Part shown: piece by piece, positions 36,001 to 64,000 of the stretch
How positions within the stretch are numbered: position 1 is the first letter of the stretch
How the letters are laid out: each line of letters starts with the position of its first letter
DNA from: Pecten maximus
Taxonomy: Eukaryota
Assembly (NCBI RefSeq): GCF_902652985.1
Contig: NC_047024.1
Location: 22,382,001-22,446,000 of the forward strand
Direction: 5' to 3'
DNA length: 64,000 nucleotides
Program-made: the position numbers

Positions 36001-39000
36001 TTATTTTGAACCTTCATGGATTTCCAATAGACTCTTATTTCATTCTGTGCCTGATAAACACACTAGTGAGATTAAGTAAACAACATATTCTTTCATCATT
36101 TGGGAAAAAGTTGTGCTGAGAAATGTTGATGTTCATGCATACCAGGACATTGACCTACATGTCTTTTGAGGAATTTTTATATTCCTCACATTTGTCACCA
36201 CTTCTATCCAGTATGACTGATTATGTGTATTTTAATATTCAGTTTAAAGCTGAAATCAAATAATACAATGCATAAAACAATTAGTAATGTAGTTGTTTAT
36301 GCTAAAGGTGAAAAAAAACTCTTTAAACAAACAATAGTGATGTTTCACAATTTTTTAATTTGTTTTTCTATCAAAACTGAATCTTTGTCAACCATACATA
36401 TGTTCCATTCAGATCCTAACATAGCAACTCTCATACTCAACACACAACTCACAATCAATTATTTGCATTCATACAAAGAATCCTTAACTTAGATGAACAA
36501 GTGTTTCCTTTTCTTTTTTTTTTATAAATCTGCATTTTACATTGCTGGAACAACTTGTTTGAACACTCAAAGCAGGAGTATGTCGTTACTACAATTTCTC
36601 ATATTGTTATCACAATATAGCACTATGTCGTCAGATTTTAAGACATAACATCAATCAATACATGAGCCACTTTTAGGAACATTTCTTATAAACAATATGC
36701 ACTACAGTGTAAATAATGTATAATTCAATATCACAAGATTCCAAAAACTGGGCACGTGACATGATTTCATAAATATTTTGTCACATTTAGGTGACTAAAA
36801 TGATCTTATCTGTTAAGTAGTCTCCCAGATAAAATCACTTGCAGGCTTTACATTGACAGTAGACAGTGTGGTAATTCCAATAACACTAATAGAGTTACTT
36901 GGTCCTATTGAATAATTCTCCGACGGTGGCTGCATTTATTCCAAGCACTTTTGAAATTTTTAAAATTGAAATTGTTCAAACAACCAATTAGTCACTAATA
37001 CAAAGAGCCCAAGACATCTTTTTTCCCTAACAAGCAGAGCAGCCCAAATCCAGATTTTTCCATGTCTACACTTGAAGTCTTGTAAGGCTTAAGTGATGAA
37101 TTATAATGCAGAACTGTCTCTATATCTCCACACCATAAATAGCCAGGCAGATTGCTGTCTAGTCAACATGTTATCAGTCCTCGTAGTCCGGATTCTTTCT
37201 CAGTATTACGAAGCCTTCCATCAGTGGACTCAGCGGTAGGTCTGTTCCAGGTTAAGGAAACAACTTACATGATTTATACATCCCATCGTTCCCCAAAGAT
37301 AATCTAGTGATATCAGTTTTATAATACCACTCAATACCAACTTACAGGATTTATATGTGTACTGTAAATCACTTAGATTTCATGAACTTACATTTCCAGG
37401 CATTTTCACGAATACATGGTTTCGCAATCATTGATCTAGAAATGATTTTGAATTCACAAATGATGAGCTATTAGTGTCACAGACTCTGCAAGACTCCCAT
37501 ATTGGAAACCATAGCTTGGTTGCCATCCGAAGGTGTTATTTTCGTACAAATAATTATGAAGAATTTTAATTCACAATTGACTCTCCTCACATATATTTAT
37601 GTGAAAATAAATCCATTGCGATAAATATAAATAATTTACAGTAACCCTCAAAACTGATAGCCTAATGAAAACATTCAGGATTATATAAGGATTTAGAGCC
37701 CCCCTCAAAACTGATAGTCTGGTGAAAACATATAGGATTTTATAAGGATTTATAGCCCTGGCCACTGATAGCCTGGTGCATAGCCCCCGCCCTCAAAACT
37801 GATTGTCTGGTGAAAACATAGGATTTTATAGAGATTTATAGCGCTGGCCCTCAAAACTGAAAGCCTGGTGAAAACATAGGATTTTATAGGGATTTATAGC
37901 CCCCGGCCCTCAAAACTGATAGCCTACCGGTAGTGAAAACATAGGATTATAAAGGGATTTATAACCCACCCTCAAAACTGATAGCCTGGTGAAAAGATGC
38001 AGGTTCTTGTAGCCTTTTATATGACAAAATCTCTTGACAACATAAAAGTTGTATATATCTTCTCAAAACTGACCTAGTAGAGACAGAATTTTTAATACTG
38101 TAAGCCAAATCTTTTGACAGCATACAGGTTCCATATAGCTCCTCAGTACCACCGACCTACGGTCAGCACCAGGCAACTGGCCAACGTAAGTTTCGAACTC
38201 ATAACCCAGAGTTGGAGGGCTAGAGATAAATTGTCAGGATACCTTAACCATTCAGCGACTGCGGCCCGTTACCAATGTGTTTAATTGCTCACCATACGAA
38301 AAGAGTTTCAAAATTCTATTTGAGTTCTAAGAAACCAAAGGCATACATCTTATTTGAATCCTGACTTCGTAGTTTTATTTCAAATTTCTCTTTAAAACCC
38401 AATAATATAATAGGATTTCATCAAAAGAAAGGATACATTCCTCCGTGGCAAGTTCCGCCCTCTCGCCATAAGCCAACAGTACTGGTGTGGTATGTGTCTG
38501 GAATCCAGTGATGGTTTTTGGCTTACCTGCTTGCCCAACTACATCAACAGCCTGTCGAGGATAAAGAACACAGCTATAACCTACAAACATTACAGTTTTT
38601 CTCCCAAATGATATTGGTTAATAACACGTTCTCCCTAATAATATCGGTTAATAACACTTTCTCGCTTATAATATTGGTTAATAACACTTTCTCCCTAACA
38701 ATATTGGTTAATAACACGTTCTCCCTAACAATATTGGTTAATAACACTTTCTCCCTAATAATATTGGTTAATAACACTTTCTCCCTAATAATATTGGTTA
38801 ATAACACTTTCTCCCTAATAATATTGGTTAATAACACTTTCTCCTTAATAATATAGGTTAATAACACTTTCTCCCTAATAATATTGGTTAATAACACTTT
38901 CTCCCTAACAATACTGGTTAATAACACTTTCTCCCTAATAATATTGGTAAATAACACTTTCTCCCTAATAATATTGGTTAATTACACTTTCTCCCTATTA

Positions 39001-63000: not shown

Positions 63001-64000
63001 AATTCAGTCTTTTTATTTACTGTATTTTGACATGATTATGTATCTTCACCGGTACCATATTTCTTAATGTGAATTGTTTTGATATTCAGGTGCTACTGGA
63101 GACCGTCTGAAGGAGGCCACAAAGATCAACTTATCATTGTCTGCCCTGGGAAATGTCATATCTGCACTTGTTGATGCAAAAACCAAACATATCCCGTACA
63201 GAGATTCCAAGCTCACACGTCTTCTACAGGACTCTCTTGGAGGTATAGAAATTGTTTTAGTTATTTATAGCCGAGTAGAATGAAACAGACATTTTTAAAA
63301 ACTGTCAATGTGTAAAATTTTCATGTTTTTGGGATTCCATACTAATTTTGATTAACATCTTTTTGAGAAAGGATAACCTTATTTCATATGCTCTGCTCTC
63401 TAGGTAATACAAAGACCCTTATGGTTGCTTGTTTGTCACCGGCTGACAATAACTATGAGGAGACTATAAGCACACTACGTTACGCGAACCGTGCCAAGAA
63501 CATCCAGAACAAACCCAAGATCAATGAGGACCCTAAAGATGCCCTGCTGAGAGAATACCAGGAAGAGATCACCAAACTCAAAGCTATGTTGATGGGGCAG
63601 CTCCCGATCCCTGAGGGAGGCTTCCAAGGTAATTATATGGAGGGTTGATGGGGCAGCTCCTAATCCCTGAGGGAGGCTTCCAAGGTAATTGTATGGAGGG
63701 TTGACAGGGCAGCTCCCTATCCCTGAGGGAGGCTTCCAAGGTAATTGTATGGAGGGTTGATGGGGCAGCTCCCGATCCGATCCCTGAGGGAGGCTTCCAA
63801 GGTAATTATATGGAGGGTCGATGGGACAGCTCCCTATCCCTGAGGGAGGCTTCCAAGGTAATTATATGGAGGGTTGACAGGGCAGCTCCCTATCCCTGAG
63901 GGAGGCTTCCATGGTAATTGTATGGACGGTTGATAGGGCAGCTTCTGATCCCTGAGGGAGGCTTCCAAGGTAATTATATGGAGGGTTGATAGGACACCTC

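What the first reader, a model, noticed from the sequence alone, without database searches (positions are those of the whole stretch)
38552..64000. Possible genome-wide process: unrelated minisatellites nucleated at or next to splice junctions
Seen: two arrays include the junction itself (47606 and 63588), and two more start ~45-60 bp from one (38596 and 61297). All four have unrelated units copied or derived from local sequence and extend only into the intron. Inference: this may reflect a splicing- or transcription-coupled tandem-expansion mechanism (R-loop, repair slippage or rolling-circle micro-DNA reinsertion). Selection against expansion into coding sequence could explain the polarity. 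I do not know of a named system for this.
Basis: inference. Interest (0 to 1): 0.72.

Follow-up and report, generated by a model that had tools for sequence, protein, structure and literature searches.

The report
Minisatellites overlapping splice junctions: known "mirages"
Two intron repeat arrays in this invertebrate window start with a copy of the real exon-intron junction, a known oddity called a "mirage" minisatellite, and their closeness to splice sites is about what short introns in a repeat-rich genome would give by chance.

Summary
They lie in two genes that I modelled exon by exon: a minus-strand PSMD2/Rpn1 gene and a plus-strand kinesin-2 (OSM-3/KIF17-like) gene.

- **Junction-spanning arrays.** Array 47606-49352 (53 bp x 32) repeats the acceptor plus the first 42 nt of a PSMD2 exon. 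Array 63588-64000+ (56 bp x 7) repeats the last 41 nt of a kinesin exon plus its donor.
- **Named precedent.** These match junction-spanning minisatellites already in print: amphioxus "mirages", and human F7 IVS7, IFI6, CBS and LMNB2.
- **Array 61297.** This is an ordinary intronic minisatellite starting 60 nt from a donor.
- **Array 38598.** This one is not locally derived. It belongs to a composite repeat whose 30-bp array occurs three times in one intron, and that repeat is interrupted by a Helentron-like (HINE-like) element carrying a 157-bp satellite.
- **Chance.** Tandem arrays cover 14% of the window, and array-free introns have a median length of 318 bp. In array-stripped coordinates, P(at least 2 of 7 arrays span a junction) = 0.21 and P(at least 4 of 7 span or lie within 60 bp) = 0.20. 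The four large arrays alone, picked post hoc, give P = 0.02-0.05.
- **Polarity.** For the two spanning arrays it follows from geometry plus selection.

This window gives no real support for a splicing-coupled mechanism. A genome-wide test was not possible.

The parts
47606..49352 (-). Array d, a 'mirage' minisatellite. 32 units of 53 bp, each made of 11 nt of intron 3' end (TTTGTTTATAG) plus the first 42 nt of PSMD2 exon 12. Unit 0 is the real acceptor and exon start; the outermost copies are decayed.
   Evidence: TRF. 32 of 32 units keep the acceptor AG. Unit table, higher-order blocks and absence of a gradient. Decayed distal edge.
47485..47647 (-). PSMD2/Rpn1 exon 12, corresponding to human PSMD2 residues 514-570.
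   Evidence: PDB phmmer (E = 2e-24, about 77% identical over 57 residues by my count, so not human). The upstream exon ends at residue 513. Splice sites.
63588..64000 (+). Array g, a 'mirage' minisatellite. At least 7 units of 56 bp, each made of the last 41 nt of kinesin exon 6 plus 15 nt of intron including the donor AAG|GTAATT. Cut by the window end.
   Evidence: TRF. 7 of 7 units keep GGTAATT. In-frame TGA at 63646 just past the donor.
63404..63628 (+). Kinesin-2 (OSM-3/KIF17-like) exon 6, covering the end of the motor domain and the neck.
   Evidence: PDB phmmer (OSM-3 residues 295-358, E = 6e-30). Splice sites.
61297..62339 (+). Array f, an ordinary intronic minisatellite. 35 units of 30 bp lying 60 nt from the donor of kinesin intron 3 and 366 nt from its acceptor. 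32 of 35 units carry a 5' splice-site-like core GG|GTA[A/G]GT in sense orientation.
   Evidence: TRF and unit counts. The unit has no match elsewhere in the window. By my own reading of the and sequence, only the 7-nt core GGTAGGT matches the real donor.
61067..61236 (+). Kinesin exon 3, which ends at GTG|GTAGGT.
   Evidence: Pfam PF00225 profile positions 105-165; the next exon (from 62706) starts at profile position 165. Splice sites.
38598..39040 (.). Array b1, a 30-bp x 14.8 array. It is a truncated copy of a composite repeat and starts 46 nt from the acceptor of the last PSMD2 intron.
   Evidence: TRF. 38599-39153 is 94% identical to 42464-43018. Its left flank is not shared with the other two copies.
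42274..42905 (.). Array b2, the same 30-bp unit x 21, flanked by segments A and B.
43537..43848 (.). Array b3, the same 30-bp unit x 10. It ends 149 nt from the donor of the last PSMD2 intron.
41792..42185 (.). Segment A of the composite repeat, 98% identical to 43016-43409. It holds a 79-aa ORF fragment with no Pfam match.
   Evidence: The protein-atlas search gave only a weak lead to Phage_int_SAM_1 (10% of one cluster).
39041..39153 (.). Segment B of the composite repeat, 99% identical to 42906-43018.
39153..41791 (-). HINE-like (Helentron-associated) element inserted between segments B and A. It has a central 157-bp x 15 array (39334-41712), a 10-nt subterminal inverted repeat, a hairpin at 41762-41791, a GACG-type microsatellite at 41721-41746 and a palindrome at 39158-39172.
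38378..38551 (-). PSMD2 last coding exon (RPN1_C domain); stop codon at 38375-38377.
   Evidence: Pfam PF18051, E = 1.4e-22. PDB residues from 849 onward. The previous exon ends at residue 848.
38375..55519 (-). PSMD2/Rpn1 gene with 20 coding exons and 19 GT-AG introns. Present-day intron lengths are 170-5446 nt.
58113..64000 (+). Kinesin-2 gene, first 6 coding exons. Its introns are 2330, 274, 1469, 150 and 161 nt, followed by one that is cut off by the window end.

Best explanation
This is ordinary minisatellite birth and turnover in a repeat-rich invertebrate genome with short introns. No junction-specific mechanism is needed.

**Shown:**
- The window holds a PSMD2 gene and a kinesin-2 gene whose array-free introns are short (median 318 nt).
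- Tandem arrays cover 14% of the window.
- Arrays d and g each begin with the authentic junction.
- Array f is an intronic array.
- Array b is part of a composite repeat into which a Helentron-like element with a 157-bp satellite has inserted.

**Inferred:**
- Short tandem duplications of about 20-60 bp arise at random, by replication slippage or out-of-register repair.
- Those lying wholly inside exons are removed by selection.
- Those inside introns, or spanning a junction, are tolerated, because one exon-proximal splice site stays intact.
- Arrays then grow and homogenise by unequal exchange of one to several units. Array d shows repeating multi-unit blocks consistent with this.
- With junctions every few hundred bases, a 53-56 bp seed spans a junction about 19% of the time, and any seed lies within 60 nt of one about 22% of the time.
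- The spliceosome keeps using the exon-proximal site. For the donor array that is the most upstream donor, as shown experimentally for human F7. Use of any pseudo-site would bring in a premature stop codon.
For: - **Gene models and junctions:**
- **Array content:** 9022 of 64000 bases lie in TRF arrays.
- **Intron lengths:** the three array-rich introns are 5446, 2522 and 1469 nt today, but 195, 828 and 456 nt once the arrays are stripped. The median of the 27 complete stripped introns is 318 nt, my count from the list.
- **Simulation in stripped coordinates, all 7 intragenic arrays:** expected number spanning a junction 0.87 against 2 observed, P(at least 2) = 0.21. Expected number spanning or within 60 nt 2.43 against 4 observed, P(at least 4) = 0.20. 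A threshold-free combined test gives P = 0.15.
- **No gradient:** divergence in array d does not rise with distance from the junction (rho = -0.11, P = 0.59, n = 28). The units closest to the real one (1 mismatch) sit 12, 22, 26 and 30 units away, while the immediate neighbour has 5 mismatches. Repeating four-unit blocks are visible at the distal end.
- **Edges:** the distal edge copy of d is decayed, and array f ends in a partial unit. I recall both as typical of slippage or unequal-exchange arrays.
- **Array b is not locally derived:**
- **Arrays outside introns:** large arrays also sit at 12401-13121, 26986-27289 (inside a 951-aa ORF) and 37645-37995.
- **Premature stops:** pseudo-site use would give a TGA at 63646 (array g) or a TAG after 19 codons (array d).
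- **Literature, passages read:** the same architecture with normal splicing is reported for amphioxus 'mirages' at both 5' and 3' boundaries (PMC3087553; PMC3902484). It is also reported for human F7, IFI6, CBS, LMNB2 and PDGF (PMC1557585).
Against: - The four large arrays taken alone are all at or within 60 nt of a junction. That gives P = 0.018 with the 60-nt threshold and P = 0.046 threshold-free. Both are nominally significant, although the subset and the threshold were chosen after looking.
- 8 of 9 intragenic array blocks are G-rich on the sense strand (skew +0.17 to +0.53). The array-free intron background is +0.12, +0.05 and -0.06. This is the direction an R-loop model would predict.
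- 32 of 35 units of array f carry a 5' splice-site-like core, which chance explains poorly. My rough estimate is well under 1% per random 30-mer.
- There are no transcript, population or cross-species data, so splice-site choice, instability and age are all inferred.
- The null model assumes uniform seeding and rests on my own gene models for a single 64-kb window.
Confidence: 0.75

Rival explanations
1. A splicing- or transcription-coupled mutational process (R-loops, repair slippage at paused polymerase or spliceosome, or micro-DNA reinsertion) preferentially nucleates or expands tandem arrays at or beside splice junctions across the genome.
For: - All 4 of the large intragenic array loci are at or within 60 nt of a junction (P = 0.018; P = 0.046; both post hoc).
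- The arrays are G-rich on the sense strand beyond the intron background.
- The amphioxus literature calls mirages 'possibly ... a more general phenomenon' with an 'unclear' mechanism (passage in PMC3087553).
Against: - With all 7 intragenic arrays there is no excess (P = 0.15-0.21).
- One of the four arrays is a truncated copy of a composite, transposon-associated repeat.
- Array d shows no divergence gradient from the junction.
- Large arrays also lie outside recognised introns.
- For the spanning arrays the polarity is a geometric necessity.
- The sense-strand skew rests on at most 8 independent units.
Confidence: 0.12
2. The arrays are kept by selection for a splicing function. Reiterated splice sites or 5' splice-site-like cores would act as decoys, U1-binding platforms or a regulated unproductive-splicing switch for PSMD2 and kinesin-2.
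For: - Every pseudo-site is intact: all 31 pseudo-acceptors and all 6 pseudo-donors.
- 32 of 35 units of array f hold a donor-like core.
- Pseudo-site use would give transcripts with premature stop codons.
- Human IFI6 and CBS do use their nearest pseudo-donors (passage in PMC1557585).
Against: - Intact pseudo-sites are expected from array homogenisation alone.
- Unit lengths of 53 and 56 nt are not multiples of 3, and other unit positions vary freely.
- No transcript data are available.
- Amphioxus mirages are reported not to disturb splicing.
Confidence: 0.06
3. Assembly artefact: the arrays, or their lengths, are mis-assembled.
For: Long tandem arrays are error-prone in assemblies (general knowledge). 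One array runs off the end of the window.
Against: - Units differ by many private substitutions and indels arranged in ordered higher-order blocks.
- Flanks join cleanly to conserved exons.
- The window contains no N.
Confidence: 0.03

Closest known systems
'Mirage' minisatellites of amphioxus (Adh3, TnC, globins BflGb6/BflGb9, PGBD5). Passages read in PMC3087553 and PMC3902484. The original Canestro et al. 2002 paper was not held.
   Same: - Minisatellite-like tandem duplications that span an exon-intron boundary.
- Both 5' and 3' boundaries can be affected. BflGb6 duplicates the intron 3' end plus the exon 5' part, like array d here.
- Reported unit lengths are 10-160 bp.
- Units keep the AG/GT signals.
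- Edge copies escape homogenisation.
   Different: - The organism here is unidentified and, judged from composition I recall for amphioxus, probably not a cephalochordate.
- Copy number is higher here: 32 units in array d against the 3-6 reported for BflGb6.
- Normal splicing and length instability, shown in amphioxus, are untested here.
Human junction-spanning VNTRs: F7 IVS7 (37 bp), IFI6/6-16, CBS intron 13, LMNB2 and PDGF. Abstract and passages read in PMC1557585.
   Same: - The first monomer spans the exon-intron boundary, so the authentic donor is followed by identical pseudo-donors, as in array g.
- The most upstream site is the one used.
   Different: - The human cases named in the passages I read are all donor-side. 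Array d is acceptor-side.
- The F7 monomer holds only 4 nt of exon, against 41-42 nt here.
- Splice-site choice here is inferred, not measured.
Satellite-like arrays carried by Helentron non-autonomous elements (Cg_HINE) in the Pacific oyster. Passages read in PMC7492417.
   Same: The 157-bp array element at 39153-41791 has all the described parts:
- a subterminal inverted repeat pair;
- an inverted repeat (hairpin) beside one end;
- a GTCY-type microsatellite, read here as GACG on the + strand;
- central repeats inside the 140-180 bp range;
- a palindrome at the other end.
   Different: - Sequence similarity to the Cg_HINE consensus could not be checked, because the consensus tables are supplementary files I could not see.
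- 15 monomers is well above the oyster average of about 5.
- The 30-bp composite repeat (array b) is not shown to be a HINE.
Introns and altered splicing arising from tandem arrays: De Grassi & Ciccarelli 2009 (passages read in PMC2812944) and Zhuo et al. 2007 (seen only as a reference-list entry; not held).
   Same: Minisatellites at exon-intron boundaries with reiterated splice signals.
   Different: Those papers report new introns or alternative transcripts. Nothing here suggests a new intron, and the junction positions fit the conserved protein alignments.

Membership tests
Junction-spanning ('mirage') minisatellite | Head-to-tail array of a minisatellite-sized unit (about 10-160 bp) | tested here: met
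   Array d is 53 bp x 32.4 at 87% matches. Array g is 56 bp x 7.1 at 89% matches.
Junction-spanning ('mirage') minisatellite | The first unit contains the authentic exon-intron boundary, so the splice site is reiterated in the intron | tested here: met
   - Array d: the junction at 47647/47648 is fixed by PSMD2 residue continuity 513|514, and 32 of 32 units keep the AG.
- Array g: the donor at 63628/63629 is fixed by the GT consensus, intron phase and an in-frame TGA at 63646, and 7 of 7 units keep GGTAATT. The next exon is outside the window, so g is less certain.
Junction-spanning ('mirage') minisatellite | The authentic, exon-proximal site is used and the mature mRNA is unaffected | not testable with these tools
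   No transcript data. The only indirect evidence is that pseudo-site use would bring in premature stop codons and that the conserved reading frame is intact.
Junction-spanning ('mirage') minisatellite | Copy-number instability or polymorphism | not testable with these tools
   Only a single haplotype in a single window is available.
Junction-spanning ('mirage') minisatellite (arrays f at 61297 and b at 38598) | The unit contains the authentic junction | tested here: not met
   - Array f starts 60 nt inside the intron. By my own reading of the and sequence, its unit shares only a 7-nt core with the real donor.
- Array b starts 46 nt from the acceptor, and its unit recurs with shared flanks 3.7 and 4.9 kb away.
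HINE (Helentron-associated interspersed element), element 39153-41791 | Subterminal inverted repeats of about 11-12 bp at both ends | tested here: met
   A perfect 10-nt match, GCTCACCTGG, lies at 39178-39187 (+) and 41781-41790 (-). With up to 1 mismatch the motif occurs 9 times in the window against 1.16 expected; 0 of 100 shuffles reached 9.
HINE (Helentron-associated interspersed element), element 39153-41791 | An inverted repeat complementary to the subTIR, plus a microsatellite, in one flank | tested here: met
   The hairpin at 41762-41791 folds at -14.1 kcal/mol, z = -4.06, with 0 of 200 shuffles folding as well. A GACG-type run lies at 41721-41746.
HINE (Helentron-associated interspersed element), element 39153-41791 | Central satellite-like repeats of about 140-180 bp, and a palindrome after the other subTIR | tested here: met
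   157 bp x 15.2. Palindrome AGGCCCATGGGGCCT at 39158-39172.
HINE (Helentron-associated interspersed element), element 39153-41791 | Sequence similarity to a described HINE or Helentron family, or an autonomous partner | not tested
   No eukaryotic repeat library was on hand, and the Cg_HINE consensus sequences are in supplementary tables that were closed.

The most novel reading that the evidence does not exclude
This genome, probably not a cephalochordate, carries a real excess of large minisatellites seeded at or beside splice junctions. In that case 'mirages' would be the visible product of a junction-associated mutational process, perhaps R-loops on a G-rich sense strand or repair at stalled transcription and splicing complexes, and not of chance seeding plus selection. 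Such a process would operate in several animal phyla.
Probability: 0.1. Interest if true: 0.6.

Novelty: new member of a known kind. Interest (0 to 1): 0.25.

Why it matters
As it stands the finding is modest. It adds two clear new examples of junction-spanning minisatellites, one on the acceptor side with 32 units and one on the donor side, in two conserved housekeeping-type genes of an invertebrate.

It also illustrates a trap in testing for enrichment near splice sites. The arrays themselves make their host introns long, so a shuffle in present-day coordinates overstates the enrichment. The test has to be run in array-stripped coordinates.

Such loci are natural experiments in splice-site choice: 32 identical acceptors, or at least 7 identical donors, compete for one partner. 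If a genome-wide excess were later shown, it would point to a junction-linked source of structural mutation and of new introns.

Tried and rejected
- **Array f as a decayed copy of its own donor region.** Rejected. By my reading of the sequence, only the 7-nt core GGTAGGT matches. Upstream 6 of 19 and downstream 2 of 7 positions match, which is chance level.
- **Repeated re-copying outward from the junction in array d.** No gradient was found.
- **Extra two-copy 'mini-mirages' at other junctions.** 30-nt junction probes with up to 6 edits found copies on the intron side at 2 of 55 junctions, namely d and g only. The opposite-direction control gave 0 of 55.
- **Pfam on the composite repeat's ORF fragments and on the 951-aa ORF.** No family was found. 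The protein-atlas search gave only weak leads.
- **Rfam and tRNA scans.** They found only one tRNA-Thr, unrelated to the arrays.
- **Sense-strand G skew as R-loop evidence.** I kept this as a lead only. At most 8 units are independent and the background is itself positive.
- **Papers not held.** Canestro 2002, Zhuo 2007 and Turri 1995.
- **First Pfam call.** One search failed on a frame slip, which I corrected.
- **Collections not used.** The phage, plasmid, E. coli and prokaryote-genome collections cannot hold this eukaryotic locus.
- **Left unchecked.** As a result no orthologous loci were compared, the organism is unidentified, and no genome-wide test was run.
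Full report
**What the window is.** The 64-kb window has no N and is AT-rich, with GC about 0.27-0.44 in 2-kb windows. Tandem arrays are very common: TRF lists 30 rows, which cover 9022 of 64000 bases, or 14.1%. I do not take it for human. Its PSMD2 exons match human PSMD2 only in part, about 77% over 57 residues by my count. It also carries invertebrate-type repeats.

**Gene models.**
- A minus-strand PSMD2/Rpn1 gene runs from 55519 (ATG) to 38375 (stop), with 20 coding exons. 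Support comes from Pfam RPN1_C and PC_rep, PDB matches to PSMD2 and splice sites read from the sequence.
- A plus-strand kinesin-2 gene starts at 58113, and six of its exons lie in the window. Support comes from Pfam Kinesin, a best PDB match to C. elegans OSM-3 and splice sites.
- Upstream lie an IPP-2 gene, a 951-aa ORF with no Pfam family, an intronless SET/MYND/TPR ORF and one tRNA-Thr.
- All 28 donors begin GT. 26 of the 27 acceptors print with AG at the boundary. The 27th (IPP-2 exon 2) printed 1 nt out of register because its start was mis-set to 2450, and is AG at 2449. Intron phases agree by arithmetic.
- The junctions that matter are pinned by homology numbering. PSMD2 residue 513 ends the exon at 50170, and residue 514 starts the exon at 47647. 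Residue 848 ends the exon at 43998, and residue 849 starts the exon at 38551. Kinesin exon 3 ends, and exon 4 starts, at Pfam profile position 165.

**The four arrays.**
- *Array d (47606-49352, sense = minus strand).* It has 32 units of 53 bp. Each unit is 11 nt of intron end plus the first 42 nt of exon 12, and unit 0 is the real junction. All 32 units keep the acceptor AG.
- *Array g (63588 to the window end, sense = plus strand).* It has 7 units of 56 bp. Each unit is the last 41 nt of kinesin exon 6 plus 15 nt of intron, and all 7 keep GGTAATT. Its donor is inferred from the consensus, the intron phase and an in-frame TGA at 63646. The next exon and the far end of the array lie outside the window.
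- *Array f (61297-62339).* It has 35 units of 30 bp, starting 60 nt after the donor at 61236/61237 and ending 366 nt before the acceptor. It ends in a partial unit and has no copy elsewhere in the window.
- *Array b (38598-39040).* It starts 46 nt from the last PSMD2 acceptor, but it is not locally derived. The same 30-bp unit forms arrays at 42274-42905 and 43537-43848. The flanks are shared: 38599-39153 is 94% identical to 42464-43018, 39041-39153 is 99% identical to 42906-43018, and 41792-42185 is 98% identical to 43016-43409. The left flank of the 38598 copy is not shared, so this copy is truncated.

**The element inside the composite repeat.** Between two copies of the composite sits a 2.6-kb element (39153-41791) whose core is the 157-bp x 15 array. 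Its features are:
- a perfect 10-nt subterminal inverted repeat;
- a hairpin beside one end (-14.1 kcal/mol, z = -4.06);
- a GACG-type microsatellite;
- a palindrome at the other end;
- a second, diverged copy of its flank at 34928-35081.

These are the parts described for oyster Helentron-associated elements (passages in PMC7492417). The composite plus this element fill 5251 of the 5446 nt of that intron.

**Is the closeness to junctions more than chance?** The arrays are what make their host introns long. The three array-rich introns are 5446, 2522 and 1469 nt today. With each array collapsed to one unit, and the composite removed, they are 195, 828 and 456 nt. The median of the 27 complete stripped introns is 318 nt, my count from the list.

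I placed seeds of each array's unit length uniformly over the stripped spans of the three genes. I discarded seeds lying wholly inside exons, as selection would. I then asked how often a seed spans a junction or lies within 60 nt of one.
- A 53-56-bp seed spans a junction with probability 0.19. Any seed lies within 60 nt of a junction with probability about 0.22.
- For the 7 intragenic array loci, a mean of 0.87 span a junction against 2 observed, giving P(at least 2) = 0.21.
- A mean of 2.43 span or lie within 60 nt against 4 observed, giving P(at least 4) = 0.20.
- A threshold-free combination of the per-locus probabilities gives P = 0.15.
- The four large loci alone give P = 0.018 and P = 0.046. 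That subset and the 60-nt threshold were chosen after seeing the data, and one member is a transposon-associated composite.
- A probe scan found junction copies on the intron side at 2 of 55 junctions, d and g only, and at 0 of 55 in the opposite-direction control.
- One search used 2450 instead of 2449 as one IPP-2 exon start, which is immaterial.

**Tests of a junction-driven process.**
- If units were repeatedly copied outward from the junction, divergence from the real unit should rise with distance. It does not (Spearman rho = -0.11, P = 0.59, n = 28 of 31 non-authentic units, with 3 indel-bearing units dropped). The nearest neighbour has 5 mismatches, while units 12, 22, 26 and 30 away have 1. 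Repeating four-unit blocks are visible at the distal end.
- The outer edge copy is decayed.
- The polarity of d and g needs no mechanism. Duplicating a segment that spans a junction always yields one intact exon, with the extra copies on the intron side.
- Large arrays also sit where I could recognise no intron: 12401-13121, 26986-27289 (in frame at the end of the 951-aa ORF) and 37645-37995.

- 8 of 9 intragenic array blocks are G-rich on the sense strand, with skew up to +0.53. The intron background is +0.12, +0.05 and -0.06. At most 8 of these units are independent.
- 32 of 35 units of array f carry GG|GTA[A/G]GT in sense orientation.

**What is known.** The architecture of d and g is already in print.
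- Amphioxus 'mirages' are minisatellite-like tandem duplications spanning an exon-intron boundary, at either the 5' or the 3' boundary. They do not disturb splicing, and their mechanism is called unclear (passages in PMC3087553; one passage in PMC3902484).
- In human F7 IVS7, IFI6, CBS, LMNB2 and PDGF, the first monomer of a minisatellite spans the boundary and the authentic donor is followed by identical pseudo-sites. Only the most upstream one or few are used (abstract and passages in PMC1557585).
- De Grassi & Ciccarelli describe boundary tandem repeats that change splicing (passages in PMC2812944).
- Intronic minisatellites are also reported in mollusc and annelid genes (passages in PMC6905558, and PMC12783039).
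- I saw Canestro 2002, Zhuo 2007 and Turri 1995 only as reference-list entries; they were not held.
- Judged by titles and abstracts, none of the papers listed in searches reports a genome-wide test of array ends against splice junctions. I saw PMC10078293 only as a listing and abstract.
- The Cg_HINE consensus sequences are in supplementary tables I could not open. They bear on whether the 157-bp element belongs to a described family.

**Verdict.**
The special mechanism is not supported by this window.
- Arrays d and g are new members of a known kind (mirage, or junction-spanning, minisatellites). Array f is an ordinary intronic minisatellite with a curious donor-like core. Array b is part of a transposon-associated composite repeat.
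- The most likely process is random seeding, selection against exon damage, and unequal exchange, acting in a genome where short introns place every intronic event near a junction.
- Use of any pseudo-site would bring in a premature stop codon, so continued use of the exon-proximal sites is expected. This was not measured.
- The genome-wide claim remains untested, because no eukaryotic genome, transcript or population data were reachable.

Noticed in passing
window 39153-41791 (also 18810-18846, 34928-35081, 35884-35893): A Helentron-associated (HINE-like) non-autonomous element with a central 157-bp x 15 satellite sits inside the last PSMD2 intron. With up to 1 mismatch its 10-nt subterminal motif occurs 9 times in the window against 1.16 expected, so the family is dispersed here. 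This hints at a bivalve-like genome, but the organism was not identified.
   Followed up: partly
window 24487-27339 (+), array 26986-27289: A 951-aa uninterrupted ORF with no Pfam match. The protein-atlas search gave a lead to DUF7869 / DDE-transposase-like clusters. Its C-terminal end is an in-frame 27-bp x 11 tandem repeat, so a minisatellite lies inside a probable transposase gene.
   Followed up: partly
window 61297-62339: 32 of 35 units of this 30-bp intronic array carry a 5' splice-site-like core (TGG|GTAGGT or TGG|GTAAGT) in sense orientation, starting 79 nt after the real donor GTG|GTAGGT. The rest of the unit does not resemble the real junction. This could be coincidence, a decoy, or a U1-binding platform; it was not resolved.
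   Followed up: partly
window arrays at 3289, 38598, 39334, 42274, 46113, 47648, 52878, 63629: 8 of 9 intragenic array blocks are G-rich on the sense (non-template) strand, with GC skew +0.17 to +0.53, above the array-free intron background (+0.12, +0.05, -0.06). The sample is small and at most 8 units are independent.
   Followed up: partly
window 47648-49352 (minus strand): By my reading of the unit sequence, each 53-nt unit looks like a self-contained 3' splice-site module. It has a branch-point-like AUGAU about 20 nt upstream of the AG, a T-rich tract and the AG itself. That would give 32 near-equivalent acceptors in a row. No branch-point tool was run.
   Followed up: no
window 32796-32867 (-) and about 32996-33094: A tRNA-Thr(AGT) gene (Rfam 55.4 bits; ARAGORN), with a diverged, 84% identical copy of the same stretch about 220 bp away.
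   Followed up: no
window 30597-32651 (-): An intronless 685-aa ORF with SET, MYND-finger and TPR matches (SMYD-like), lying between the transposase-like ORF and the tRNA.
   Followed up: no
window 12401-13121 and 13379-13479: A large A-rich array with nested periods of 19, 41 and 60 bp, plus a related short array nearby. They lie in a stretch with no recognisable gene, which shows that big arrays are not confined to introns.
   Followed up: no
window 14915-15033 and 38148-38267; 3976-4184 and 37402-37613: Dispersed repeats about 77-81% identical are shared between the region just downstream of the PSMD2 stop codon and distant parts of the window, including an IPP-2 intron. They are probably other interspersed elements.
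   Followed up: no
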